Positions 2,092 through 38,307 of a DNA stretch of 40,281 nt are shown here, one piece after another (position 1 is the first letter of the stretch; each line of letters begins with the position of its first letter). The DNA lies in assembly GCA_002256025.1 (NCBI GenBank), contig NKIB01014823.1, positions 1 to 40,281 of the forward strand. The letters are read 5' to 3'. This DNA comes from Asterionella formosa (Eukaryota). The translations under genes and the position numbers were made by a program. The notes below the pieces were generated by a model, which saw only the letters and a list, made by a program, of their open reading frames with translations, did no database searches and was not told where the DNA came from.

Positions 2092-5000
2092 ATGCTCTGG
2101 AGGTTTTGGTTGTCAGGGCTCTTGGGAGTCCTGGTCTTGGCGGATGATGTAAAGCTTCAAGTGAGCATCAGAAAAGAAATGCTCAGAGGGGTCTCGTCGT
2201 GCATACACGCGAAGTCGGAAATCGAGCTCTTGAACACGGTAAGTTTCCCGCGACAACGAAGGTCATGCTTTTGCCTAAGTGAAGATTTGTGGGGCTATTT
2301 CAGGTACCTCTTTTATTCTATATTAGTTCGTCTGTGACGTGCAGCCTTCTTCTTGCGTCGGAGCTCGTGGTTTGGGTTTCCTCTCACTCCTTTCCGTTTC
2401 GTTGAATATAGCATTCATCGGAGTCCATAACTATCCGCTCACTTCGCACAACAAAAGAAGACGTAGTGCTAGTTCAGGGAAACTTGGAATACGATATTGA
2501 AGCCGAGGTTGCAAAGCAAGTTCATGTTACTCGATTACCAAACGGAGACTTCAAGCTTGAGCCGGGGCAAAAAGCCACCATTCCAATTACGTTTCTTCCG
2601 CGCTTTCCTCATGATGACGAAGATTTGATTTGGCCTAGCGGATGGGATGAAAGTGCCCCTCCTCTAAGCATACCCGTCAAAGCGGACTTGGCGAGACTAG
2701 TTGGCGAGGAAGCCATAGAGCGAACTGCAAGGCACGGTCAACGACGGAGCAACAAGGGATTGTACAAGTTTGATTTCGACAACGACGACGAGTATGAAGT
2801 TCGCACTGCTCTTATAGTGGAATCATCACGTGGGTTAATGGAAGTGCCTGTTTTGGCATCGAGTTATAAGCACAACATGTATGGAGTTCCACAAATGATT
2901 TATTTCCGACACACTCCAATGAAGAATGAGCATCTGGACCCATGGATTGATGAAGTTCTGATACTAGATACTATAGCTTTACACAAGGGATCGTTGACGA
3001 CAATGAGCACCGTCACGTCTGATGTCCCAGTACACGAGTGTTACGATGTCTACCTATCGAACCCACGCGACCATACCTATTTGGAAGTGAACGAGGTTTT
3101 GGTCTCGAAACCAGACCTTGTATCGTTATTCGACAAAAATCAGGATCCTTACTTTGAAAAACCGAAACGATCAATAGATTCATGGACCGTCGAAAGAATC
3201 AGTGTTCGGATAGAAAAAGGCGAAAAAGATGTTTACTTAGCCACACTATGCCCGTACGGCGGCAACAATCCGTTGGATTTGCTCCAGTCACCGACAGTGG
3301 ATGCACCGAAATGGGTCAATGATGGGAAAACACAAAAAGATATTCTAGGCTATCTACAGATTAGAACCGACAAAGACACGCTATTTGTCGTCCTTCAGCG
3401 CCAACCCGCAGAAAACTTATTTGCACAACCACCAGACGAGAACCTTCATGAAGCCATTGAAAAAGTGTTTGGAAAGGAATTCGCCAACGGAATGCGAGAC
3501 GTTCCCATCAAAGATTCACTGACCATCGGAACAAATTCCGTAAGGCTAAAACACCGAAAACAAAATTTGGTAGCATCGCCCCGCAACCTAAAGAACAACC
3601 TAGTTGGTAACGTCAGCCCCCAAGTTGCGACGCCCATTACTATTCGGAATACCTACAATGAAACCGTCAAGATTATGCATGTGACTTTGATCATTGACAA
3701 GATTCCAGATGGTGACGTTATGGAGGAATGTACAAGCACGGGTTTGGAGATTTCGGTTCATGTTCGCGACTCGGGACAGCAGTGTATGGCCACCGAAGAA
3801 AACTGCGTGACTGACCAAGGTCCTTATATTCGAGCAGGATCTGCCTTGGAAGGAGCTGTGCTATTTCGTGCGTCTATTGATTCGAACAAAACTGCTGAAT
3901 ATCTTGAAAGGACATTTGTTCGGACACGATATACTGGTACTGTCGTCCTCAGGGCAACCTCAGACATGGACATTTCATATTCTGAGTGGAAAGAAAAATT
4001 AAAGCAAAATCCGTTTATGGATAGCAATTTGATACTCGAGATTCAATACACTGTGAATGTTATTGACGGGCAAATCCATTTTCTGCTTGAACGAACAACT
4101 GGACCCCATCCAATGCTTCGCTATCAAGAAAAGGCCTACAAATTCCTGCCATCAGTGAAGGCGTTGTTTTTTCCCATTCAAAATTTTGAAATGCGTAGTT
4201 GGATGTATTGGGAAAAGTCTCAGGAGACTTACTTCCCTTACGATGATTTTGGTTTAAAGCATTCCATGAGAATTCTCGGTTCAATTCCTGTCGTGACCAA
4301 CATAACGAATATCAGAATCAATAGTTATGGCGACCATAAATCACTTTGTGAGAGATTTAAGATTTCGATTGACTATCCGGAGACTACGCTGAATAGACCA
4401 GCAAAATTTGGGAAATCTGGATTACATGATATGGGCGTGCTCCACGTTGACTACACTATTACTCCCCACAAAGTAAAGGAAAAGGAAAAGAAGAAAAGGG
4501 ATTCGCTAGCATACACTGAAGTCTGTTATCTGGAATATGAAACGACACCAGTCAATACGGGAGTGCATATCCTACCGTTGCTTGTCTTCCCAGCTAGACT
4601 CGATGTTGCAGCATCTGAATATAGCTTTGTTGAAGATGAAGCCTTAGTTGATTCTCGGATGTCAAAATTAAGCGAGTTTTCGTCATCAGTTGTCACTGGG
4701 TTTGATGAAGTCCTAGAATGGTTTCGATCGTCAAATCTGGGCCAGGCACTTTATAAATATCTTGAGCAATCGTCGGAGGGTCAGAAGAAATCCGATATGG
4801 AGACAGGAGCTTACTTACTGGGTCGCTACATCTTCAAATTGGGAAATGCAACCGCTAATGAGAGTGCTTCGTTGAGGCCCATACTTTTGAAGGTAGGAGC
4901 AATTGGTCATAGTGAAACCCAGACGACGTCGTTGTACTTGACGAATCACAACCCTATCCCCGTCACCGTTTATGTTGACGTAAGTGAAGTTGAAGGATCA

Positions 5001-8000
5001 AGCATTTTTCTGGCAAGGGATTCAAGCAGGGGACGCGGTGACGGTAATTGTTTTCTTGATTATCTTCCCAAACTTGAACCCGAAACGTTCAACACTAGAA
5101 TCAAAAGCGGAAAATTTAAGGGTCATTCAAGGGAAGGGCTCCGGCAGTTTCTACTCAACGCAGAGATAGCGCAATCATTTTATCGAATCGCCCCATATCG
5201 TGACGCAGTCAGCTTGAGCGCGGTTGCACTTAAAAAGAACTCGTTGCTTCAATTCATGTACAAGTTGAATGCAAGGATGCATTTTTACGCAGAGAAACTG
5301 CCTCGCCACTGCTTTAGAACTGAAGGTCTTCGTTGCAACAACATGGATCATAACCCCTCATGGTATTACAACTTCACTACAACTAGACAAGATTCCAAGA
5401 AAAAATCTGAATTCCCTGGCCCCTTGGTTCTTTCTGAAGATCTTAAGATTGCTCATCATTCAGTAATCTGTGATCCTCCTTTGGAAGAAGCTGCTGTTCG
5501 CGAGAGAACCCTTACGAGCTATCGCCACCCACCAGTGACGATCCCCCCAGGAGGTGTTGCGCGTTTCGAAGTGCGTGTGCGTGCTCCGGACGAGAGCGCC
5601 TTACAGAAGGATATTACTCCACTTTTATCGACTGGCCTTGTATTATCCACAAGCCACGGACAAGTTATGCCAATTATCGTAGCCTTTGAGGCCCTCCTAG
5701 GAAAGTTAAAAGTGACAAACAAAAGATTTAAAGGTGACGAGTTTGCAGGAAATACTGTGGTTGACGAACAGGAAGTGATACGAGTCCCACCTGGTCTTTT
5801 CAAGGAATTCCAAATTAATAACGAAAACCATACTATCTCTCCCTGGCTTTCCACGGCCACTACCCTAGGAGTCAACGAAGGTCAGGAAAATATGATATTT
5901 CAGAATACGATAATGAAGCTATACCTGGATTCGTCGTTCTCTCGAAAGGTTTCTCTTCGCTATATAGAGAGCTGCAACCCATGGTTTCATGTGGAACTAA
6001 AAGAAGGGGCATCTACTGGTTTAGGAAATGCTCCCCTTGGTACAGTGCTGGCAGTCAACGAACGCATTGAAATCGGAACCATAGAAAGTATGCTTGACTG
6101 TCCTGTCATAGACACCCTGATGGCATCGGAACAACTGACAACACAAGCACCCGTGTACCCTTCATTTTTCCAATGTGCCATGGCATGGATAGAGAATCGG
6201 TCGAAACTTCAACCTCACGGTTGCGGATTAGAACCAAGCCCAACTGAGAATCTTTATATTGATGAGGAAGTAGTCGAGAATTTAGCCGAGGATGATGCCC
6301 TTGACCGCGCACGATATGCGTTGCATCATGCAATTACCTTTAGTTTGGTCAAATACGGCGGAGCTAAAGCTCCCCTGGATAATGGACGTTCTCGGAGAGG
6401 CGAAGGTGAGGAAGGTAGGGACATTATCAGAGCAGGACCTAGTTCAATCATGTACAATCATCCAGACTCTGTTGACTATGCAACGAAATCGGGGGCCTCT
6501 CAAGGGAAAGAACTAATTGACAGTCTGACACTTGACGTGTTCGCCGAAATAACGGACGCTTGGCGTGTGATTATGGAACTTGATCTTCATTCCATTAGCA
6601 CAAGTTTACGAGCTACGATTGACTACGAATTTCCAGACACGGAACGAAGCTCTGAAGCGATATCTGTCCCTGAGCGTCATACTTTGACCATGTCTATGCA
6701 GAATTTGGCAGCGCGAACGGTCCTTTCATTTCCCCTACTTTTCGATCATACCAGGTTTCTGAAGGTAGACCCATACGCACTCTCCTTTCCACATGAAGTT
6801 CTTTCTTTCATCAATTTTCCCGCTGCTCGTGTGGGAAATGTGGGCTGGTTGAAGATTCCAATTCGCAACCCGTATGCAGTACCCATACGCGTGCGGCTAG
6901 CAGCAGCCTCACGCTCACAACTCAAGAATGATGGAGCATACAAATCAACAGAGCTCCCTATTCTCGACAGTTTGGACGTACGCGAACGATACCTAAGGCG
7001 CCTAGGACCTCTGTTTGCACAAACGAGCCCAACTAATTTTCACAGGAACCAGGCAGGGGATTCATGGTGGGACGGCGATGGGTCGTTTTTCATGCATGAT
7101 GACCATGGCAATCTTATTCAATCTAGTCAGGATGATTCGATCGTTGCTGGCGCTGGAACACAAGTCAACCTCGTCAACCCATCCCTCTTTGCAACATCAG
7201 GTCTTCTCGTTGGTTGCGGCGCAAGATGTGGGTTGCACGATGGGGCGGGTGACAATCCCGAAGAGTCAACAAGCCCCATTGGCGCCTCTGCTGCGGCCGG
7301 TTTGTATATGATTGGGCGCAGACGATCATGCAGTAAGTGGCGAAGCGATCAGGGTGCAAATGAACCGTGTCTGTCGGCTGATGGTTCGTCATCTGACGAA
7401 GAAGCCCCTGCAGCCTTTGCGATTCCGTACTCTTCTTTCGACGAAGTGATCTTACCTCCTTATGGAACTGCCGAACTTGGCCCAGTATATTTTCGCCCGC
7501 CGGGGCGCAATAGCGTTCTTGGCTGTGACGCTATGCTTGAGAGCAAAAGTTATCCGTGGTCGCCTAGAACAGAAATGGCTTGCGAATCTCAAACATTTGA
7601 ATCAATGGTTTTCCTTGAAAATTCGCTTACAGGCCTTGAACGAGTGGTTGTGCGCGGAGTTGGTCTTTGGGAACGGGTAGTTTTTACTGACCCGGCACCG
7701 ATGCCTGGGAGAGACGCGTTTGGTGATGTTGAGTATCGGTTTGGACGATCGACGCTGGTTTTTCCAGGCAGTGGCGTGAAGGAGAGCTATGGTTTATTTG
7801 GGTATACTTCCCACCCAGTCATCAAGGAGTTCTTGATTTTCAATGACGGTGATATTGAAATCGAGTTTAAAAGTATTTTCTTTACAATGGCCACAAATTT
7901 GCCGAAAAAGAGAACACGGAATAGTGGGGCTGACCCTGGGAGAAGCTGCGAGTACCGAGGATTCCGGCTTATTGGATGCTTTGATAGCGACGAGCGAGTT

Positions 8001-10955
8001 GTGTCGGACAATGATGGTCGGTTTACTCTTCACAACCTCAAGTATGGTTTCACTCTCAAACCAGGAAGGACACGTACATTAATGATCGAGCATACGCCCG
8101 ATTGTTCTTACCGGTCTGAGTATATAGCGTTACAGTTTGAATATGCAAGGGGAGAGCGAAGCTTTCACGGGGAGGACACACAATCGGACGAATCATTCTC
8201 ACGATCTGGGAAAATGAGACGTGAAAACGGGAATGATTGGAGTAGGTCCTTCAATCGCCGATTCGAAGAATTGCTGGTAGGATTTGAGATGAATCATAAC
8301 GATGTGAGTCGCTGTATTCCAGTCACCAAAAATGCAAAAAGACCCCCTGCCGTTATTCCGGTCTCGTTGACCGACTTCAGCAATTCCACAAACAAATATG
8401 TCTTGGCCACAGCAGTTAAACGATCTTTCATGTTGGAGTACCATTTGAAAAGATTTTACAGTTCAAACCGCCGCCTTGGCCTGGCATTCGGTTTGTGTAT
8501 CCTTTTTGCTGTTGCGACATGCATGATCGCTTTGCTTGTGCGCCAGTTGACTTGTTATCGGCAGAAGACTTCGTTGAGATTCCGTACTACTTTGCGTGGG
8601 GGGAAAGGTAAGTCAGAGCTGGACGAGCTCGGGCAGCAGCATGACAACTTAGCACACCCATCGTCCAACTGCTATAACAACTGGTCAGCCACATTCCGTT
8701 GTTTAGCCCGTACCGATCCTACATCGTCGGAGCTGCAAACCTTGGGTCGAGAACAAGTCCGACAAATCGTTCTAAATCGTTACAAGAGTATGGGTGTTCT
8801 TGCACCTCAGTGTATCAATGGTGCTGGTATTTTTGTACGCGACCGATTTTTGGTGAGCGAAACAACCAGTAAAGATGGCAGTCTGGGTAACAATGGCAAG
8901 ATCCGGACTCTTAGTGACTCCCTATTTTATCGAATGGTAAACGAAGGCGACTATGTTTATGGTACAATGCCATGCGCACTTGGCTGGAAAACTGCAGTGG
9001 CAAGAGGAATTGTCAGCAAAAGGTCCAGATCGTCGGTTCGACTCAACTCTGCAAACCTTCTTCGCGAACGACAAATTATCCTAGAACCAAGGAACAGTAA
9101 TGAAATCGGTGATTCTGAAGAAGACGCACCTTTCGGAGATGAAGGCAGTGATGAGGAAGAGGACGTTTCAGAAGATCTCGAAGCGTCAGACGAGCTGGTC
9201 TCGTTGAGTGGAAAGTCTCGAAGGACTGTATCTGAAGTTATTGAGTCAAACGATAGATTTTCCAAGATGTCAAATGATGACGTAGATTCTGTTATTCCTG
9301 TCGAAACACCTACCGGGGATGCAATCTCAACATCCGACTCCGACGGGCACACTAGTCGCGATGAAGACTCACAGGTGACGAAATCTAGCTTGGGGTCGCT
9401 AGTTGTTGCTGATATTGCGATGAAAAAGGTCAAAAATCATGGCGCCCAGGGGACCACTGACAGGAGGGTAAAGCCAAATTACGAAGATACGAACGCTACT
9501 GACACGACAGCAAAAGTGGCCGAAAAGTTGGAGCCAATACCTTTGACTTCGTCGCATCATGACGATAATGTCACCAAGGCGCCAATGACTAAGGATTGCG
9601 CATCATTAGCGGTTTTTGAAATGCATCAAGTATCCAGTACGTCAACCAAGTCAGTTGAACACAAGGAGGAATCGGAAGTGGGAAAGCAGAAAAGGGATAG
9701 GCTCGAGAAAGAGAAAGACACGAAAGTGGTGAACCCGGAGGAGGAACAACCATCCAAGGCGAAGAACCTTCGGAAGAAGGAAGCCGTTCCAAGTCAATCT
9801 TCAGATCGTTCTACAAAATCTTCTCAGACCCCGAAGTCCGATAGTAGGTCCGAGCAAATATCGGTACCAAGCGGTTTATCTAAGGGATCCACCACCTGCA
9901 GCGACAAGATCCGAAGTCAAAGGATGTCAGGCCCGAGATCCGCGCAATCCGAGACATCGACGAAGAAAGAGAGAGCCAAGGGAATAAAAAAGACGAAGAA
10001 GTGTCAAACCGAAACCAAATCCAAGGCAATTCACGAGATGACAGCCACAATGGGTTCGACAAACCCTGGCCCTATGGTGAGCATTCTTCGACCACCACCA
10101 GGATTGGCACCTCCTCCTGGCTTTGGGAATACCGGGGGGAACAACAGCGCTTGCAACAATCATACCACTCCCAAGAATGCACGCTCGCTTCCTGGAGGAG
10201 ATCTCCCACCAATGCACGAGTCGTTGTCACAGCTCGCTCCCATCCTGCGTGGGCTAGGCAAGACCACGACGGACGCTGCCCAAGGGTCCTTCTTTGGGTC
10301 CCCAACTACCTTGAACGAAGCCAGTACCTCAAACTTATTCAATTCTCTATTGGGTCATTCAAGTGCCCTTTTTGGAGAGTCCTCGGCTGGTTTGACGGAT
10401 CTATCACATCCATCTCTCTCCATGGATGAAGACATTATTTCACGCCCATGCGCACCTTCTTCCCCGGGAAGTCATAGTCTAAGTGACGACGGTAGGTCTC
10501 CACGAGGAGATGGAAGGCCCTTACTAGGGCTCGGCGGGGGTTTCAATGTCATGGATTTCCTCGATAGCATTTTGAATGATCCGAAAAGCCGGGAAGAAGG
10601 TGAACAAGGAGCAAATGGTCCTGCTGAGTTGTTGGTAGAGACCACCGGGACTATTTCAGAACCTGTGGTTGGGGGCACGATCATTTCTGCCTTACCATTG
10701 AGCGCCAACCCATGGGCGCCCTCAGGTATGAGCTCTCGAGCAGCTGCCTACGGTATTGCGGTGGACGATCCACCTGTCGAAAGTGGGATTGTGCATGCCA
10801 TTTTGGCTGCTTCTCCCAATCGCGAAAATTCTGTTTACCCTTTGGAGGCTTCGGCTGTTACGTTGTTGACCCCAGCTGTGTTTTTCCCCCATAATGACAA
10901 TGATGACGATGACTACAATAGTGGTTCTTTCTTTGCGCATCTTTTGGGCGAGTAG
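2092..10955 (+). CDS. TMEM131: TMEM131 (RW1)-like type I membrane protein, ~2,896 aa; join(2092..2238,2412..10955)
   Basis: Exon 1 encodes a signal peptide (MLWRFWLSGLLGVLVLA-DD). Phase-0 intron GTAAGT(2239)..ATATAG(2411) joins in frame to the 2829-aa ORF. Motifs resemble TMEM131 repeats: FKLEPGQKATIPITFLPR, LYLTNHNPIPV, VYFRPP..VFLENSLTGLERVVVRGVG, CEYRGFRLIGC..FTLKPGRTRTLMIEHTPDCS. One TM helix (LGLAFGLCILFAVATCMIALLV) precedes an acidic/Lys/Ser-rich disordered tail with PPPG motifs. Confidence 0.8.
2239..2411 (+). other. Spliceosomal intron (173 bp) of the TMEM131-like gene
   Basis: GTAAGT donor, pyrimidine-rich tract and TAG acceptor; splicing restores the frame and adds the signal peptide. 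Confidence 0.8.
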
Positions 10956-11312: not shown

Positions 11313-11726
11313 TTAAGTACGGTCCATCTCTTCAGAATTGACATAGTCGGAACTTTCTTTCTTGAGGTCTCCAATCTTGATGCAGCAGCCAACTTTGGGG
11401 AACAAGGTCAAACCAAGAAAGGTGACAGCAACAGGCACTTCCTTGTTGCAGGGAAGAGCACCCGACACAACGACATTACAGAGCTGGCACTGGGCGTTAA
11501 AGAAAGAACATCCATCGCACTCGAACTTCGGTCCACAGCAACCGAGAGGAAGGCAGGGAGCGGAAGGCTTGCAGCAAAACTCCATGTTGAGGCAGCATAG
11601 GCCAAACTTTCCAGAGCAGCCTGCGCAATCAGCATCCTTGTAAAGACCGCAGTTCATGCAGCACACAGCGCAACAAAGCGCGATGTTCTCCTCATCGACA
11701 GCGTCATCTCCTCGTCCAGATCCCAT
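11313..11726 (-). CDS. Small cysteine-rich protein, paralog 1 (137 aa, 21 Cys), function unknown
   Basis: MGSGRGDDAVDEENIALCCAVCC...SGALPCNKEVPVAVTFLGLTLFPKVGCC. Aligns end to end with the paralogs at 15393 and 16442, with many differences at third codon positions. Confidence 0.85.
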   Translation of the reverse strand: MGSGRGDDAVDEENIALCCAVCCMNCGLYKDADCAGCSGKFGLCCLNMEFCCKPSAPCLPLGCCGPKFECDGCSFFNAQCQLCNVVVSGALPCNKEVPVAVTFLGLTLFPKVGCCIKIGDLKKESSDYVNSEEMDRT

Positions 11727-12660
11727 GATTCTCAATTAATCCTTGTTGTGAAGTTATTTGTGAGTCAAAATGAGCGGCAATGCATACACGGGGTACTCTG
11801 TGAAGAAGTGGAGTGTCCAGCCAGCCACAATGCTGGAAAGCACTTTCGGAGGGAGTGTCAAGGAAACAGATGTCATCATACAAGGCATCCTCGCCAAAAC
11901 TTTACAACGGATCTAATCATCAAGTTTATGGGATAGTCGTAGCATTCAAAAGCGAGATCGGCAGGCTGAATCTTTTTTTCTTCGAGTAGTTAGTACCTGT
12001 ATAAACATATACCGGAAGATATATCCTTGTTATATAGATACCCCGGCGTTGTTTTGGAAACGGGATCATATGTAGGAGAATACATGGTTACCGTTTTACG
12101 ACCGGTTCCTTTGTAGTCTACGGTACCGGTATACTACTATCATACTAAAGCGTAGTTAGTGCCACCTAAAAACTGTAGTAAGCCACCGCTATGACAACTT
12201 TTGAACTGTAAGACACCGGTAAACGAGCAAACGCACGGTTTGAACTTAGTTTGCAAGATCCGTTAAAATTATTGACAAGAAGGAGTTCTTCAGATTTATA
12301 GATCGAGAAAGTACTTACGTACATGCTTGCATTGCTCCATTTTGTAAGTTGTACTGTAACAGGTATGTACCTATTACGGCCCAAAAAAAGGTTGCTGTCG
12401 ACGCGAAATTGCGAAAAAGGGATATTTTCACTTTACTCTATATTGAGTTGTCAAAGCCTTTTCTCAACGTGTTTTTACGCACAATAATAAAAAATTCTTC
12501 CTATAGAAATTAATTTAGTATCATTAAATGTGGGTACGACGTCATTGGCTGTGCTTTCGAATACACTAAGTACCGCAGTAAGAATTAAGAATTCGGTGAT
12601 GATGTGCAAGCGCAAAAAGCATACCGGGTACTGTGTCGCGCATAATAGGTAAAGTAAAAT

Positions 12661-12975
12661 TTTATTTTTTTTTGGCTGTTCCAAGAAGGCGCCAGGAGAA
12701 AACCTATCTGGCCGCTTTGCCCGCCTGCCCCATCGATGTTGGGTGCTTGGGGGGCATCATGGGAGGATTCGAACTCCTCCCACCAGTTCATGTGTTCAGG
12801 AATGTTTTTGAGGCACCCCGTCATCCAATCATTTCCCAGTGTCCAGTGAGGCACCCCGCCCCTCTCACCTCCTGGGCAAGGTGGTGTGAGACTTTCACTC
12901 ACTAAAAACCTGTGTGCAGCCCCAGTCTTGACCAGTACGCGGTCTGCCCTACCCATCGGGGCGTTGGCCCGTGGG
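12661..12975 (-). mobile_element. SINE-like (or 5'-truncated non-LTR) retroposon, ~315 bp, A-rich tail, 13-bp TSD
   Basis: Direct repeat GGTAAAGTAAAAT at 12648-12660 and 12976-12988. T-tract at 12661-12673 is an A-tail on the minus strand. GC-rich body in AT-rich flanks. Hairpin TGGGAGGA-GTTCGAA-TCCTCCCA carries a B-box/T-loop-like sequence. Confidence 0.75.
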
Positions 12976-13544
12976 GGTAAAGTAAAATATGACAAGAATT
13001 TCTGTAGTATAAATGGAGCAAGAATAGTCACGCTTAAGGGGGACATATATATTCATGTACAAATTGAAAAATATCCAATGTAAGCCAGTCAGCAGTAAGA
13101 TATGTGCAACAATCTTCATGACTTTGAAAAGATTTGATCTTCATGGCTCGATACACTGAATCAAAACTGATTACTTATTCATTGAGTAGAGTGCATCGTC
13201 TAACATACACTTATAATTAGTTCTTGCATCAGGTTTCGATTGATAAATTACTAAAATATTTTCAGTCGGAAGATGGAAATAATGGTGGCTTACAGTTTTT
13301 AACTGGTAACAGGGTAGTCCTAGCATTCAGAACACAAATGCATCATTGAGGAGGATGCATTAAAAGCTTGATACAGGTGTTTACATACATGTATGTGGCA
13401 GGGGTATATTCTATAGCTGGGGGGGTGCATCATAAAACTAGCTACTGGTTCATTGGATAGCAACCATTGCTACCAGTACAACATAATTTTAGCTTAAGTA
13501 AAATGCTCTATACAATTAACATTCAAATGAATGAATTTTATGTA

Positions 13545-14820: not shown

Positions 14821-15392
14821 TCTTAGCCACACTACCGGTACTTCCCCCTTCACATGCCCAGTTTGACAGGGAGCTTAGATAGTCAGTCGATCATGCCGGT
14901 GTTCACCAGGGTAGCATTACCGTTATGCATGAAGAAACTTACTTACAATTATGCTCTATGTATGTATAATACTTATGTATGAAACGGATGCGTTCGCAGG
15001 ATGATCATCTTTATGTATATATACAATTTATATAGAGAGAGATGATTTATCGGAATGTTAGCGAATGACCAATCATGTGATGTTCTAATTATTCAACAGA
15101 CCAACGCATAGGTACCAGGGAGTATATACAAGGAACTGCACTCAACGCCAGCACGCCACAGTGGATGGGAACAGGTATTGCCAAGCAAGAATCAACAATT
15201 AGCTATTTACTGATGTGTATCGTATCATGTACTAGTTGCATTACGCAGTATTTATTACTATAGTGAAGGGCATCATCACATTTCCCCTCGCTAAAATACC
15301 GTCCTTCATTCTTCATCCATATACCGGTATTGTGGGGTACTAGTACCATCGTAAGTAGAATAAAGGTAAGATCACACAATCAAAAAGCAATC

Positions 15393-15764
15393 ATGGGACG
15401 AGGAGGCGACGCCGTTGACGAGGAGAACATTGCCCTTTGTTGCGCAGTTTGTTGCGCAAACTGCGGTTGCTACAACGATGCTGATTGCATTGGCTGCTCT
15501 GGCAAAGCAGGACTTTGTTGCTTAAACTGCGCGTTTTGCTGCAAAGCTGGTGCTCCCTGCCTTCCATGTTGTTGCTGTGGACCCACGTGTGAGTGCGATG
15601 GATGCTCTGTCTTTAATGTCCAGTGCCAATGCATGAGCTTGGTTGTAAGCGCTGCTCTTCCCTGCAACGAGGAGGTGCCTATTGCAGTTTCCGTCCTTGG
15701 TTTGACCCTTTTTCCCAAATGCGGTTGCTGTGTCTCGATCAAGAGTATCAAGATGGACCGTTAA
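15393..15764 (+). CDS. Small cysteine-rich protein, paralog 2 (123 aa, 27 Cys)
   Basis: Intact ORF MGRGGDAVDEENIALCCAVCCANCGC...PKCGCCVSIKSIKMDR; homologous to paralogs 1 and 3. Confidence 0.88.
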   Translation: MGRGGDAVDEENIALCCAVCCANCGCYNDADCIGCSGKAGLCCLNCAFCCKAGAPCLPCCCCGPTCECDGCSVFNVQCQCMSLVVSAALPCNEEVPIAVSVLGLTLFPKCGCCVSIKSIKMDR

Positions 15765-16349: not shown

Positions 16350-16441
16350 TTCACTCACACACCGAACACTGTTGCCACGAATCACAACAATTATGCTTTA
16401 TTACTTCATTACCATGAGGAGATCACAATCAACAAGCAATC

Positions 16442-16816
16442 ATGGTGGAAGGAGGAGATGACGCCGTTGACGAGGAAAACATTATTCTTTGCTGCGCTTT
16501 TTGCTGCGCAAACTGCGGTTGCTACAACGATGCAGATTGCGTCGGTTGTTCTGGGAAGGTTGGACTTTGCTGCACAAACTGCGAGTTTTGCTGCAAAGCT
16601 GGTGCTCCCTGCCTTCCTTGTTGTTGCTGGGGACCCAAGTTTGAGTGTGATGGATGCTCTATCTTTAATGTCCAGTGCCAATGTTTTAGCTTGGTTGTGA
16701 GCGCTGCTCTTCCATGCAACGAGGAGGTGCCTATTGCAGTGTCTGTCCTTGGCTTGACCGTCTTTCCCAAATGTGGTTGCTGTGTCTCGATCAAGAGTAT
16801 CAAGATGATGCGTTAA
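16442..16816 (+). CDS. Small cysteine-rich protein, paralog 3 (124 aa, 25 Cys)
   Basis: Intact ORF MVEGGDDAVDEENIILCCAFCC...SIKSIKMMR. Shares the 5' flank (caatcaa.aagcaatcATGG) and the 3' TTAAGCTC with paralog 2. Confidence 0.88.
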   Translation: MVEGGDDAVDEENIILCCAFCCANCGCYNDADCVGCSGKVGLCCTNCEFCCKAGAPCLPCCCWGPKFECDGCSIFNVQCQCFSLVVSAALPCNEEVPIAVSVLGLTVFPKCGCCVSIKSIKMMR

Positions 16817-26150: not shown

Positions 26151-26495
26151 TCTGGTGATGGGGCAGCTCAGCTCTACGTATGGACAGAATGTTAGTCACA
26201 CTCTAATGCATGTACGTACTGGTAGTTTATCTCAATGCTTACATTTCCATACGTTGGATTACTACCAGTACATAAGGGCCAATCTTGACAGAGATACAAA
26301 TTATTTTTTGTTTTATTTTCAGAAAAAAATGAATCTTTACAGAGATACATTTCACAAATATATCTCTATAATGGCAAAACAGTTAACCTTTTTCTTCATG
26401 TCTCTGCAAACATGTGCATCAGACTCAGCAATTATATTTGCAATGTGCACTTTCATTATTCAATGTGTCTGACCATTATCATTATTGACACAACA

Positions 26496-27265
26496 ATGAC
26501 AAATCGACCAGAAGAACCTGACAGTTGGGATGTCATTGCAAATCTTGATATAGAAGCAGAACAACCGAGCTTTTTGTTAGTAATTGCAGCAGTTGCATTA
26601 CCATTTTTGAAGTCCTATGAACGAAATTCGAAGCTAGTGCGAATTCCAAAATGGGAGCATCAACGAATTGACTGGAATGAGCATGTCACAAAGCTTGTTC
26701 ATGAGAATAGATTTCATCGTGAATATCGCATGTCTCTTGAAGCTTTCAATCAACTACTGGAACTCCTTCGACCTTCTATCACAGTTGATGTTGTTAAATC
26801 AAATGCAAGTTCCGGTTTATACAGCTCAAATCAGCCTATTTATCCTGAGTTGATCCTTGGCATTGGACTTCGCTGGCTTGCAGGTGGAAACCTCATAGAA
26901 ATTTGTCATGTCTATGGAGTTTCTTATCCATCTGTTTATGCCAGCATCACTAAAACATTCCTTGATGCAGTGAACTCCTGCACAGCATTATCAATAAAAT
27001 TCCCTACAACAAACAGTGATGAATGGATTCCTTGAAACAAGGAAGCAGCAACTATTTTGTGGATGAATTGGTGCTATAGATGGATATTTACAGCCTATTT
27101 CTAAAACCAAGAAATAAGGATTGTGATGGCTTGCTTCCCTCACCAAGCATATTGGTCTGGGCATTATATGACATATGAATTGAATGTTCAAGCTGTTTGC
27201 AAAAGCAATTGTTGTTTTCTATACTTTGGTGTTGTGGCACGAGGAAATGGTCCAGATCAGAAGGG
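26496..27265 (+). pseudogene. PIF/Harbinger (DDE_Tnp_4-type) transposase pseudogene, 3'-truncated
   Basis: FHREYRMSLEAFNQLLELLRP and IYPELILGIGLRWLAGG, then across frameshifts G*IGAIDG and YWSGHYMTYELNVQAVC..FLYFGVVARG. Stops and frameshifts are present. Confidence 0.85.
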
Positions 27266-30431: not shown

Positions 30432-33320
30432 ATGCATGAGGAAACTGCGTTCCAAAATGCCCTCAATCAGGTCGTTCTACTTACTCCGGCTCATCGGACA
30501 TGACTCCGTAATGACGATCATATCATATCTGCTACCGAACTTGGTCCTCTTCTTGATGATGCCACCATACTTGATTGTTCCACAAATGCAACAAGGCTAA
30601 CTGCCGGTAAGAGGACTAAGATATATGCATTTCATAGTTGGATCCGTGAACAGCAGGTCATTGTTGGATATGGCAATGTTCCAGTCTTCCAATTTCAATG
30701 TTTAGCACTTGTCCCATTTGCTGAAGGATGCAGGTAAAATCAAGCATGCAGAACAATATCAATCCGGAAGCAAAGATATTAAAGCCCCTGACCTATGGTC
30801 CGGTAAGGCTACAGATTGGCGACAAAAGAAAAGGGAGTTCATTGCCTACATTTCATTGAAACGCAACAAGAATGGGATACCTTTGGTGTATCTTCTCCGT
30901 GACAACAACGAGCAACCTGCTATCGAACAGGACCATGGACTTGATGGAGATACCAAGTCTATTATCCGCAACGCACCCTTGACAGGGGAAGCATTAAACA
31001 CAGGCGCACAACTACAAACTCTTTCAACCACTCCTTGTTGCATGGACAGCAAGCGGGTCTGGGCAATCTTTGAAGCGTTTTGGGAAGGTGACCGATACAA
31101 TTGGACACTCGCTGGTGACTACTACTGTTCCATTCAAATGAGCTCGCAAGATGAGCTTGAAACCCTTGGCATAGTTCGGTATGGTGCCAGCCAGGTTTGG
31201 GCGCTATTATCTGGACTTCGAACAGATCAAATCCGTCAAATTTCTGCAGTAATCATGAATGAGAATGGATGCAATACCGACCTAGCTACAAGCATCGGTT
31301 TTAAGTTACAGAACCTCTGAAATATGCGTAGACCACCATCTCAAGCTTATAATAGTGTTGGCCGACATAATCAACATAGACATTACACTGACCGCAATAT
31401 CAGCTCAACATCACATGACAGTTGTACCAGACGTGGAGGTCATAATGGCGGATGTCATGGTGGTCGCCAGGCTGGATGCACTGGCCGTGGTGGTCATGGT
31501 CGTGGTCGATACAATAATCGCAAAATAATAAAAATAACCAGTCAGGTACTGCACAGGATGGTCTTTATATTGCGTTAGTCATCTGAAATCAGTTAGCCAG
31601 AGAGCAAAGATGCGTAATGTGCAATCAGGCTCAGAATCAATCATCCACCTGCCTCCTCAATCCCACAACAAGTCTCTGCAGTTAATGGAAATGGCGATGA
31701 ATCCACTATCAACACTCAGCTTACACCACACCCAGCATCCCAGGCTGTGCCACTTCAGAGGGATTAGTACCCCCTGCATCTGCACGATGTTCCATTACAC
31801 TTTTTGCATAAAAGTGTCCGAAAATGCAATATGAGTTAGTCGGGGGAACTTGGGGTTTTTTTAATTACATTTGTAGCAAATCAATATTAATTTCTATCAA
31901 TGATAGAAACTTTTCCTGACTAAATTTTCAATGACTCTTTTTACTTAGTATATCATTGAAATCGAAAAATAAAAATAAATTTGTACTGCTGTACATTTTT
32001 GTCAAGAAATCGGATGCATACACAATGTATCAGATGTACTTATGTTTTCAACATGGAACACATCATACATACAACAAACCTTGTATGTACTTTCTACATT
32101 CTGTATATAAAGCGTTACATATTATATATGCTTGCTTGGCATACATACTACTGGCTGTTTACTAGTAGTACCAGTACTTGCATGTGTGTTCATACAAGCT
32201 GCCTGTGGTGGTATGGGGTTGATGAGACAGCAACTCCATCTTGACCATGACGAAATTATGGATTTTAATATCTTCACAAATATTGACAATGAACAATTTC
32301 TATTTCGCACGTGTATGTAGACTAACATAGAAAAGATTATCGTTCAATAATTTAATTTTTTTGCACTAGCATTGACAACAAAAAGTTGAAATCGGCGCTG
32401 GAAGTTGTTTTTGGTCGTTGTTTGCTCAGTTTTGAAGATATGACCAAAAACGAGACAGTGTTGAGTCTGCGGTGATTAGCTTGATAACTTTGACTAGATA
32501 ACAAGGTTTTCTATGTTTTGTAGAAATAGATGAGAAAACTTGAGCAACAGTATTCTCGGAGAGGGCGGTACAACATTTCAAGATGCAACAAATTCATCTA
32601 CGTCAATTTTGTAAAAATTTTCATGTAGCTACACACTAATTGATAAGGTCATTTGACAGTTTACTATAGACATACTTTCAGCCATTCAACAATACACTGC
32701 TTGTTCTTGCCGCGAATAAAAACTTTGCATCACGGAAAATATCACTAACTCCCCCCCCCCTGACTGACGGTTTATGCATTTTCGGACACTTTTATGCAAA
32801 AATTGTATTCTTTCTTTGCACAATTTGGCCAATCTTGCCAACAAGGAGCTATTACCACAGGTATACATTACATTTCTAAAGCAACTCGTCGCCCTGTGGA
32901 GAATGATTACTATACCAGTCGCTCCTGTGCCGATGATACCATCTGTGCTGGTCAGACATTTCATCTACTAATACACCTATCAGGCCGAGTAGTCGATGTT
33001 TGGGGGTTACACAATGATTTAGGGGTGATGAGTGTAGTACCAATTGCTCATGTGCGTCGCAACCGCATATAATTCTCCTGATGGCCACACATCTATTCTT
33101 TCAGCCAATGAGGCCTTATTCTTTGGTAAAGACATGATGGAGAACTCATTGATCTCTCCCCAACAATTGCATGACAATGGTCTACGTTGTGACACCACTC
33201 CTATGCAGTATAATGCTCACTCGATCCATGGAATACATGACCCAATCTCAGACACCACGATCCGCTTCCGACTCGTCCATGGATGCATTTCTTACATTCC
33301 TATTCGCCTACCAACAGAGC
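30432..33320 (+). mobile_element. Decayed Ty1/copia (diatom CoDi-like) retrotransposon, gag and protease region, interrupted by a MITE
   Basis: Gag-like KAPDLWSGKATDW..FIAYISLKRNKNGIPLVYLLRD and an RGG-rich segment. Protease-like ADDTICAGQTF..SGRVVDVWGLHNDLG, then VATAYNSPDGHTSIL..NEALFFGKDMMENSLISPQQLHDNGL..HGCISYIPIRLPT. No IN or RT seen; many stops. Confidence 0.75.
31798..32805. mobile_element. Non-autonomous Tc1/mariner-type element (MITE), 1,008 bp, 31-bp TIRs, TA TSD
   Basis: Left TIR CACTTTTTGCATAAAAGTGTCCGAAAATGCA (31798-31828). Right TIR at 32775-32805 matches 30/31 as reverse complement. TA at 31796-97 and 32806-07. AT-rich non-coding interior. Confidence 0.9.
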
Positions 33321-36132: not shown

Positions 36133-38307
36133 ATGATATCATTACAATCCATTTTCCTCTTCTTGTTGCTGTCCGCCGCCGCCATTCCGTGCGCCTTATG
36201 CACAGCGCTATCGAACTATACGAAACTCTTTAGTGCTTCGGATTGGATCATTTCTGGGCCCACCGTCTTTCCTAAACCCACCGATTTCGCTGGGAGCGAC
36301 ATTCTGCCTATCCTCACACCCACCATTGGCAAGCACAGGCCACACGTGGATGCTGTTTTCGTCTTCGCCATTGAGTACGAGTTAACCACCTATTTGACCT
36401 TTGTCAGTTCCCTACGAAAGACTGGCTTTCAGGGAGACATTGTCTTTGCTATTTCGGAGTTGGATTACAAAGATGCGGAAGTGAAAGATTTCTTGACCTA
36501 TGCGACTGGTAAGGAACGCAACTGCACTTGAGATGGCACGTTCTGATAGAAGTCAAGCATCGTTCACTCATTCGTCACTTTCTCTCGCTCTCTCACACAC
36601 ACATACACACAGGCGTTGTGACATATGTCGTTACCTTATCCTGTTTCAACTCCGAATTGCAGCATGTCGAATCGGCAAAGGGAGGCATGCGAGTTTGCCA
36701 AATTCACAGCCTCTTGGGCCGCAAGACCACAACGACACAAGGTCTCGAAGTTGCACCAATCCAAGATCCTCGCAAACCTCGCACGATTGCAATCCTTAGG
36801 TATGAACTTTTTTGGATCTGGTCTTTGAAATATATTCCTCATACATGGATCATGATTCTGGATGGAAGAGACACCTACTTCCAGAAAAATCCTTTTGAGA
36901 GCGTGCCGAGAACGGCCATAAAGGATGCGAACACGCAAGATGGTCTGTTGTATTTCTTTGGGGTAAGTGGAGAATGAATGCATGGAATTATTTGGTTGTC
37001 ATTTATACGTACGCTACTGGAGAATATGCTGACTAACCATGTTATCGCATTAGGAAAATGTTGACGCAACCCGCCTTGGAACTAGTATTAAGAATCGGGC
37101 TTGGCTCCAGCATGCTTATGGCGATACGGTAGTGAAAGCCTTGGAAGATAAACCAACAATTTGTTCCGGGGTTAGTATGGGTGAACAAGTGGCCATCGAA
37201 GCATACATTCGTGCCATGGTGGCAGAAGCGGACGAGACAGGGACAGTAATGATGGGGGCCGATCAGGGGTTTCACAATTATTTATTCCACACCAACAAGT
37301 TGGCAAATTCCAAGAATATCCGGAGTATTACAATCTTTGATCAGGGGTGGGGATTGGTCAACAACATGGGAGCCTTGAGAACAAAAGATTTGAATCAGTG
37401 GGGTAATGGAAAGATCCTTAATCATGTTGACGAGCATACCATATCTGTTTTGAATTGGGATGGGCTGCCCTCGCCAGTTGTTCATCAGTTTGATCGACAC
37501 AAAGAGCTGTCAAAGTATGTTCACAAGATCTTGGCGGATGAATTCAAATCGAAATATTTGGAGGAACATAATACTCGACTACAAGCTGCAGCCGCTCAAG
37601 CGGCTGCAGAACAAGCTGCGGCAGAGAAAGCAGCTGCGGACAAGGCGGCTGCAGACAAAGCAGCTGCGGACCAAGCTGCTGCAGCCCAGGCGACTCCAGA
37701 ACAAGCGGCGGCAGACAAAGCAGCTGCGGACAAGGCGGCTGCAGACAAAGCAGCTGCGGACCAAGCAGCTGCAGACAAAGCAGCCGCTGACACGGCGGCT
37801 GCAGCCCAGGCGACTCCAGACCAAGCGGCGGCAGACAAAGCAGCTGCAGACAAAGCGGCTGCGGACCAAGCGGCTGCAGACAAAGCGGCTGCGGACCAAG
37901 CAGCTGCAGCCCAGGCGACTCCCGACCAAGCGGCGGCAGACAAAGCAGCCGCGGACAAGGCGGCTGCAGACAAAGCGGCTGCGGACCAAGCGGCTGCAGA
38001 CAAAGCGGCTGCAGACAAGGCGGCTGCAGACAAAGCAGCTGCGGACCAAGCAGCTGCAGCCCAGGCGACTCCAGACCAAGCGGCTGCAGACAAAGCGGCT
38101 GCAGATAAGGCGGCTGCAGACAAAGCGGCTGCAGACAAAGCAGCGGCAGACAAAGCAGCTGCGGACAAGGCGGCTGCGGATCAAGCAGCTGCAGCCCAGG
38201 CGACTCCAGACCAAGTGGCGGCAGACAAAGCGGCTGCAGACAAAGCAGCAGCAGACAAAGCGGCTGCGGACCAAGCAGCTGCAGCGCAGGCGGCTGTAGT
38301 GGCATAG
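36133..38307 (+). CDS. Secreted or anchored GT-A-like putative glycosyltransferase with Ala-rich repeat tail, 659 aa; join(36133..36508,36613..36962,37054..38307)
   Basis: Signal peptide MISLQSIFLFLLLSAAA. Intron 1 GTAAGG..ACAG (phase 1) and intron 2 GTAAGT..GACTAAC..TTAG (phase 0) join three ORFs in frame. Motifs FVSSLRKTGFQGDIV, ILDGRDTYFQKNPF (DxxD), TICSG, ADQGFHNYL and PVVHQFDR are GT-A-like. Confidence 0.8.
37582..38296 (+). repeat. Coding minisatellite with 15-bp units encoding AAADK/AAADQ, punctuated by AAAAQ-ATPDQ
   Basis: About 47 pentapeptide units such as gcggctgcagacaaa and gcagctgcggaccaa, with variation mostly at synonymous sites. Confidence 0.95.

What the first reader, a model, noticed from the sequence alone, without database searches (positions are those of the whole stretch)
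12648..12988. Structured ~315-nt A-tailed retroposon with an exact 13-bp TSD and an internally placed tRNA-like hairpin: candidate new SINE family
Seen: GGTAAAGTAAAAT flanks both ends, with an A-tail on the minus strand and a GC-rich body. There is a perfect 8-bp stem with a GTTCGAA loop (12760-12782), a second hairpin GTGAG-TGAAAGT-CTCAC (12886-12902), two copies of GGGGTGCCTCA, and partial complementarity between the 5' part (GCCCCGATGGG) and the 3' part (CCCAACATCGATGGGGC). Established: a TSD plus A-tail marks target-primed reverse transcription, and tRNA-derived SINEs normally carry the B-box in the first ~70 nt. Inference: here it lies ~200 nt in, so this may be an atypical SINE or a retrocopy of an uncharacterised structured RNA. 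The identical TSDs suggest a recent insertion.
Basis: partly seen in the sequence, partly recalled or inferred. Interest (0 to 1): 0.75.

Follow-up and report, generated by a model that had tools for sequence, protein, structure and literature searches.

The report
Self-propagating structured LINE tail
The insert is the tail of a LINE-type jumping gene, not a tRNA-derived SINE, but this tail keeps being copied into the genome with the same starting base, right at the edge of a folded RNA element shared by many distant LINEs, which suggests the LINE makes a defined short RNA from its own end.

Summary
The 13-bp TSD, A-tail and hairpins are real. The 314-nt body is the last 23 coding bases, stop codon and 3' UTR of a young endonuclease+RT LINE. 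It is not a tRNA SINE: no tRNA or Rfam hit, the B-box is not conserved, and a conserved T5 tract at +67 would stop Pol III.

It is also not ordinary random truncation. Of 59 independent copies with a placeable 5' end, 29 start within six bases of this copy's start, and they come from several LINE subfamilies.

That start is the edge of a covarying RNA module found at the ORF end of 24 other LINEs. A second conserved module follows, with two U-tracts closed by a covarying stem just before a short A-tail, resembling an ENE.

Best reading: the LINE RNA yields a processed 3'-UTR RNA (exonuclease block or self-cleavage) that is retroposed. Main rival: RT arrest in front of a conserved upstream hairpin. 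No RNA end was observed directly.

The parts
12976..12988 (.). Target-site duplication, 5' side of the element
12648..12660 (.). Target-site duplication, 3' side of the element
12661..12975 (-). Whole insertion: the 3' end of an APE+RT LINE. Position +1 = 12974; 12975 is a C where the LINE has T
12946..12974 (-). Module A: conserved leader (+1 to +6), 3-bp P1, NAVG/UAD internal loop with an invariant G-U pair, 3-bp P2 hairpin. Contains the ORF stop TAG at 12951-12949
12930..12944 (-). P3 hairpin with YGUAC-type loop; kept in the closer relatives only (64.6% of cells paired)
12903..12912 (-). Module B: outer stem arm X and 5' U-tract (T5, +67 to +71)
12886..12902 (-).
12842..12882 (-). Module B helix Pc and the 5' arm of Pd
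   Evidence: for Pc; Pd read by eye
12795..12825 (-). Stem closed by tandem G-A pairs (K-turn-like; label recalled); seen by eye in several relatives, not tested statistically
12760..12782 (-). 8-bp hairpin with GTTCGAA loop; T-loop-like, not a conserved B-box
12693..12712 (-). Module B: 3' arm of Pd, 3' U-tract and outer stem arm X'
12661..12673 (-). Short A-tail
12159..13312 (.). Host repeat (about 80% identical paralogues, inverted ends) into which the element inserted; bounds approximate

Best explanation
The insert is the 3' end of an active single-ORF APE+RT LINE (shown). Copies with this exact 5' end arise again and again from successive LINE subfamilies (shown). The end coincides with the edge of a conserved RNA module (shown). 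Inferred: the LINE transcript is processed so that a stable RNA of about 300 nt begins at module A. The more likely route is that 5'-3' exonucleolytic decay is blocked there (xrRNA-like, about 0.3); the other is self-cleavage in the linker ahead of it (about 0.2). Inferred: module B binds a short A-tail through its two U-tracts (ENE-like) and/or docks the LINE protein, so the fragment stays stable and competent for target-primed reverse transcription. The result is SINE-like insertions without a Pol III head or a master copy.
For: 29 of 59 placeable independent 5' ends fall within -3..+2; 0.54 expected from the +4..+249 background, Poisson p about 1e-39; about 1 expected using only +4..+65 (arithmetic). 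None fall at -4..-61. In the 11 hot-spot copies whose TSD reaches the junction, starts are -1 (1), 0 (2), +1 (6), +2 (2), with no added G. Solo copies interleave with LINE-attached copies of young and old subfamilies, 0-18% divergent. Nucleotide conservation begins at this site: C at -1 in 22 of 25, C at +1 in 22 of 25, G at +5 in 21 of 25. Module A covaries: 53 double-change cells vs 19.4 shuffled, 0 of 500 shuffles. RNAalifold finds the same 7 pairs. A LINE end not used in the model scores 34 bits, E 4e-8. The module is read in different frames or lies in the UTR, so the constraint is on RNA. X/X' pairing is element-specific, 0 of 20000 permutations, 19 elements. A-tails are 6-9 nt in 29 of 34 copies. 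Precedents: viral xrRNAs give precise 5' ends in 3' UTRs (PMC11702639, passages); ENEs protect retrotransposon RNA (PMC12501189, passages).
Against: No RNA 5' end was observed; only assembled contigs were available. No Rfam match to any ribozyme, xrRNA or ENE family in the window or in 10 related loci. I found no convincing pseudoknot or leader pairing by eye, which known xrRNAs and HDV-like ribozymes have. A long hairpin just upstream in 15 of 25 elements gives RT arrest a real basis. The hot spot was measured in one genome and one family. Long young copies are collapsed in the assembly, so upstream ends are under-sampled. Cleavage inside the ORF would cost the element full-length templates.
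Confidence: 0.5

Rival explanations
1. Programmed RT arrest: full-length LINE RNA is the template, but reverse transcription stops at a roadblock (the long hairpin ending at about -13, perhaps protein-bound), and the short cDNA is integrated. Modules A and B are then only protein-docking or stability structures.
For: A 16-17 bp hairpin spans about -51..-14 in this family and in L132. The 60 nt upstream fold better than shuffles (z <= -2) in 15 of 25 elements (no control on other ORF windows). A related non-autonomous element joins the LINE sequence at -15, the hairpin base. Junction microhomology (T or CT) is frequent.
Against: The boundary is at -1..+2, 12-15 nt short of the hairpin, and no family copy starts at -4..-61. 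Sequence conservation starts at the boundary itself.
Confidence: 0.27
2. An internal Pol II start inside the ORF end produces a capped 3'-UTR transcript.
For: It would give a precise end, and the conserved leader could be a DNA initiator element (inference).
Against: No added G at 11 TSD-defined junctions. The conserved features covary as RNA pairs.
Confidence: 0.1
3. Co-translational decay: the exonuclease trails a ribosome paused two codons before the stop (Pro in the P site, Asp in the A site), leaving an end at -23 from the stop.
For: +1, +4 and +7 equal -23, -20 and -17 from the stop, and single copies start at +4, +5, +7, +7. A ribosome leaves 5'-P ends 17 nt upstream of its A site (PMC9017187, passages).
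Against: The usual peak is -17, not -23. Module A and its leader are conserved where they are out of frame or untranslated.
Confidence: 0.08
4. A Pol III-transcribed SINE with a displaced B-box, amplified from master copies.
For: Shared 5' end, TSDs, A-tail and a GTTCGAATC match in this family.
Against: The sequence is contiguous with the LINE ORF. T5 at +67 is conserved as T4-T7 in relatives and is a Pol III terminator (established knowledge). The B-box C is lost in L132 and L154. No tRNA. Solo copies carry no shared diagnostic changes that set them apart from LINE-attached copies.
Confidence: 0.03

Closest known systems
5'-truncated copies of stringent-type LINEs with structured 3' UTRs (e.g. 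SART1Bm; PMC7265360, passages)
   Same: 3' end of an APE+RT LINE, inserted by TPRT with a TSD and an A-tail; such a UTR can be mobilised in trans.
   Different: Truncation is usually scattered (established knowledge); here half of the ends share one site across subfamilies, and the structure covers the ORF end and the whole UTR.
tRNA-derived SINEs with LINE-derived tails (PMC5786205, passages)
   Same: Short, fixed 5' end, LINE 3' end, TSD.
   Different: No RNA-gene head, an internal Pol III terminator, no master lineage; 100% LINE-derived.
Ribozyme-headed and bipartite non-autonomous LINEs: R2 and R2/R1 SIDEs (PMC3414825, abstract), Perere-3 twister variants (PMC8501958, passages)
   Same: A precise 5' end next to the TSD, set by an RNA structure that lies 3' of the end.
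   Different: Those structures sit at the element's 5' end and are joined to the tail by deletion. Here the end is internal, there is no deletion, and the fold matches no Rfam ribozyme.
Viral xrRNA / subgenomic 3'-UTR RNAs (PMC11702639, passages)
   Same: A 3'-UTR fragment with a precise 5' end at a conserved fold near the stop codon.
   Different: Described from viruses; no pseudoknot ring shown here; nuclease resistance untested.
ENE poly(A) triple helices of PAN, MALAT1 and plant/fungal LTR elements (PMC12501189 and PMC13541005, passages)
   Same: Two U-tracts facing each other, closed by a GC-rich covarying stem, just upstream of the A-tail.
   Different: The upper side is a three-helix junction rather than one stem, and the host is a non-LTR element.

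Membership tests
tRNA-derived SINE | tRNA-related head with A and B boxes near the 5' end | tested here: not met
   ARAGORN 0 genes; Rfam none; the 5' 26 nt are LINE coding sequence
tRNA-derived SINE | No internal Pol III terminator | tested here: not met
   T5 at +67, T4 at +273; conserved in relatives
tRNA-derived SINE | Family descends from master copies distinct from the LINE | tested here: not met
   Solo copies interleave with LINE-attached copies
tRNA-derived SINE | Fixed 5' end, TSD, LINE-related tail | tested here: met
APE-type LINE 3' end | Contiguous with an ORF carrying endonuclease and RT domains | tested here: met
   P0001 (98% to the query): RVT_1 E 3.4e-27, Exo_endo_phos E 2.4e-13; CCHC knuckle seen
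APE-type LINE 3' end | Scattered 5' truncation points | tested here: not met
   29 of 59 ends within 6 nt; the other 30 scattered from -741 to +249
Named LINE clade (L1, RTEX, Ingi etc.) | RT phylogeny with reference elements | not testable with these tools
   No named relatives; nearest Atlas clusters are unnamed RVT_1 proteins; no Repbase or Dfam
Known self-cleaving ribozymes (HDV-like, twister, twister-sister, hammerhead, pistol, hatchet) | Match to the family's consensus fold | tested here: not met
   No Rfam hit. The module A loop is 3x2, against 5 and 6 nt in TS-like cores (PMC11620745, passages). No twister L4/P4 layout by eye
Self-cleaving ribozyme (any class) | Site-specific cleavage in vitro | not testable with these tools
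   needs a cleavage assay
xrRNA | Blocks 5'-3' exoribonucleases at a fixed base | not testable with these tools
   needs an XRN1 assay
xrRNA | Pseudoknot ring around the 5' end | tested here: inconclusive
   By eye, a leader to P3-loop pairing fits some rows and fails in others
ENE | U-rich tracts on both strands closed by a GC-rich stem near the A-tail | tested here: met
   19 elements; permutation 0 of 20000; 3' U-tract 17-32 nt from the tail in 16 of 19; 6 of 19 pair weakly
ENE | Simple internal loop flanked by a stem on both sides | tested here: not met
   The upper side is a Pb/Pc/Pd junction
ENE | Triple helix with poly(A) and protection from deadenylation | not testable with these tools
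   Indirect only: tails of 6-9 A in 29 of 34 copies

The most novel reading that the evidence does not exclude
A widespread, unnamed LINE lineage carries a two-ended RNA protection device. A new xrRNA or a new ribozyme class sits over the ORF end, and a junction-type ENE sits before the A-tail. Together they release a stable subgenomic 3'-UTR RNA, like flaviviral sfRNA but from a nuclear retrotransposon, which is retroposed as promoter-less SINE-like elements and may titrate the LINE's own protein.
Probability: 0.3. Interest if true: 0.9.

Novelty: new variant of a known kind. Interest (0 to 1): 0.62.

Why it matters
It offers a route to SINE-like families that needs no Pol III head, no internal deletion and no master copy. 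It also supplies a compact, deeply conserved RNA fold (two modules, about 25 natural variants with covariation) that matches nothing in Rfam and has a predicted processing site known to within 2-3 bases. An XRN1 assay and a self-cleavage assay on a 120-nt transcript would decide the mechanism. A positive result would be a non-viral xrRNA or a new ribozyme class.

Tried and rejected
tRNA/B-box reading: rejected. Single SINE master: rejected. Whole-element stability: z -0.10; the comparative structure costs about 6 kcal/mol against the free fold (-102.7 vs -108.6), so it is not the MFE. RNase P-type cleavage of a tRNA-like fold: no acceptor stem between +1..+7 and the bases after the T-loop arm (by eye). 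SECIS or hammerhead reading of the tandem-GA stem: the apical As and the hammerhead core are not kept in relatives (by eye; family features recalled). Protein-level explanation of the C-terminal peptide: rejected, because the same bases are read in another frame in 15 of 115 proteins (control 2) or lie in the UTR. RNA runs: 4 of 24 listed runs were laid, all contigs. In X13 the UTR pieces are deeper than the one ORF piece, in X1, X2 and X4 not; contig depth cannot rank parts of a gene, so no conclusion. A second module-B family in the own genome: pattern search found 0, so the hot spot could not be tested in another family. Viral contigs: 2 chance hits and 0 hits. Prokaryote genomes: 2 hits, probably eukaryotic contaminant contigs (inference), one a LINE end with both modules. 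Rows left out: L166 (ORF-internal regex hit), L129-L131 and L139 (near duplicates) from A2; L124, L125 (other family), L080 (Ns), duplicates and contig-end copies from the 5' end count. Clade naming failed.

Full report
OBSERVATION. The letters are as described. The 13-bp duplication is at 12648-12660 and 12976-12988, with the A-tail, both hairpins and the 11-nt repeat at the stated places. The insert sits in an older multi-copy repeat, and 4 of 5 paralogues compared run across the site without it. No tRNA or Rfam family matches, and the element folds no better than shuffles (z -0.10). Position +1 below is window 12974, minus strand.

WHAT IT IS. The own genome gave 130 candidates, of which 40 were scored, at 94-96% identity apart from the window itself. 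Of the 30 loci returned, 25 continue upstream into an open frame with the RT catalytic motif and a CCHC knuckle, ending ...STGQRPDG* with the stop at +24..+26. The full protein is 1475 aa with endonuclease and RT domains. The insert is therefore the last 23 coding bases and the 3' UTR of a young LINE; the window copy is 2.4% from the reference. I could not name the clade. I did not test the organism; other notes of this scan call it a freshwater diatom, and the RNA runs holding the sequence are mostly freshwater and estuary samples.

THE SHARP 5' END. I collected copies with three patterns at +1, +65 and about +258 (52, 90 and 74 matches), fetched those not yet held and placed their 5' ends. 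After collapsing duplicates and dropping contig-end copies, one N-flanked copy and two members of another family, 59 ends remain. Of these, 29 lie at -3..+2 (27 by BLAST start, 2 by eye because of an early deletion), 10 at +4..+37, 12 at +86..+249 and 8 at -62..-741. The expected count in six bases is 0.54 (p about 1e-39), or about 1 on the +4..+65 background. Where the TSD reaches the junction (11 copies) the starts are -1 to +2, with no added G. Caveats: long young copies are collapsed in this assembly, and old short copies are under-sampled.

NOT ONE MASTER. Young solo copies carry the same haplotypes as LINE-attached copies, and older solo copies share diagnostic bases with older LINE-attached copies such as L104/L113 and L107/L110. 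The tree interleaves them over 0-18% divergence. CpG sites are 18% diverged against 5% elsewhere. The end is thus made repeatedly from the LINE.

CONSERVED RNA. A metagenome scan gave 80 loci of relatives, down to about 25-40% protein identity. Module A (RYC-NAVG-stem-UAD-GRY) was found in 29 of 80 loci, with 0 hits in reverse-complement and reversed controls; many other loci lack the 3' end or are more distant. One hit was ORF-internal and was dropped. On 26 distinct rows, 53 cells show double changes against 19.4 in shuffles, and RNAalifold gives the same 7 pairs. The rows were chosen by a pattern that required pairing, so the percentage paired is not independent evidence. Independent support is the position at ORF ends, a held-out LINE end scoring E 4e-8, and the proteins: of 115 with a CCHC knuckle (148 examined), 38 carry the peptide of this module in one frame (control 0) and 15 in another frame (control 2). 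Base conservation starts at the hot spot (C at -1 and +1 in 22 of 25). A long hairpin of free sequence lies just upstream in 15 of 25 elements.

Module B is X-U(4-7)-A-Pb-ACU-Pc-G-Pd-U(3-6)-X', followed by the tail. It was found in 25 of 80 loci, two of which look like chance (controls 4 and 3). Pb and Pc covary (10 double-change cells vs 2.2, 15 rows). X pairs with its own X' better than with others (0 of 20000 permutations, 19 elements, 6 weak; relatedness not controlled). Tails are 6-9 A in 29 of the 34 copies parsed, of 39 tried. The GTTCGAA hairpin is not conserved as a B-box, and the U-tract at +67 would end a Pol III transcript (established knowledge).

HOW IT MOST LIKELY WORKS. Shown: LINE origin, TPRT marks, a recurrent end, the end at the module edge, covarying structure. 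Inferred (0.5): a processed RNA starting at module A, by exonuclease block (about 0.3) or self-cleavage (about 0.2), stabilised at its 3' end or docked to the LINE protein by module B, and then retroposed. Rivals: RT arrest before the upstream hairpin (0.27), which is supported by a related element joining at -15 but sits 12-15 nt off the boundary; an internal Pol II start (0.1); ribosome-trailing decay at -23 from the stop (0.08); Pol III SINE (0.03). The RNA data available were contigs only and decide nothing.

COMPARISON. It works like a stringent LINE tail and looks like a SINE in its ends, but it fails the tRNA-SINE tests. It resembles xrRNA-derived subgenomic RNAs, ribozyme-headed non-autonomous LINEs and ENEs in layout. 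Membership in each is untested or fails on fold. Papers seen: passages of PMC12501189, PMC13541005, PMC5786205, PMC11702639, PMC7265360, PMC9017187, PMC11620745 and PMC8501958; abstract and outline of PMC3414825; no supplements, where alignments of LINE UTRs could bear on novelty. Ten searches listed no paper describing this fold or a fixed internal 5' end in a LINE tail. Only the top listings were seen, the library lacks most subscription papers, and Repbase and Dfam could not be searched. I recall, without a check, that some insect LINE UTRs and SINE bodies carry a similar U-tract plus hairpin; if so, module B is partly known as a sequence motif.

VERDICT. Real feature; not a new tRNA SINE; a LINE tail with an unexpected, precise and recurrent 5' end at a conserved, uncatalogued RNA structure. 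New variant of a known kind, interest 0.62.

Noticed in passing
L125:58-970 (G000:C14060); also L130:624-1544 and a decayed copy in L124: A non-autonomous element of about 0.9 kb with a 15-bp TSD. Its 5' end shares 37 nt with the 5' region of LINE L132, and its 3' end carries a variant of modules A and B with compensatory changes. It looks bipartite; PMC5786205 lists only RTE, Ingi, Vingi and R2 as producing such elements. Its contigs are deep in two RNA runs (508 and 562), which does not prove expression.
   Followed up: partly
window 12159-13312: Host repeat with inverted ends and about 80% identical paralogues (298 candidates, 40 scored); MITE-like by inference.
   Followed up: partly
window 11313-11735 (-), 15267-15764 (+), 16418-16816 (+): Three paralogous small, very cysteine-rich ORFs (about 120-130 aa); the one scanned has no Pfam match.
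   Followed up: partly
window 2412-10955 (+): A 2847-aa intron-free ORF with no Pfam match.
   Followed up: partly
window 37054-38307 (+): ORF ending in a long AAADK/AAADQ pentapeptide repeat.
   Followed up: no
window 26289-27035 (+) and 30706-31320 (+): Probable decayed transposon ORFs (Harbinger-like and Copia-gag-like by recall); no Pfam match.
   Followed up: partly
L212 (RFGN01000222.1) and L213 (CBDCEV010000146.1): Bacterial MAG contigs that carry this eukaryotic-type LINE 3' structure (L212 both modules and the ORF end; L213 module B only); probably contamination.
   Followed up: partly
L008:1450-1487 and equivalent places in relatives: A long hairpin inside the coding end of the LINE, free in sequence but present in 15 of 25 elements.
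   Followed up: partly
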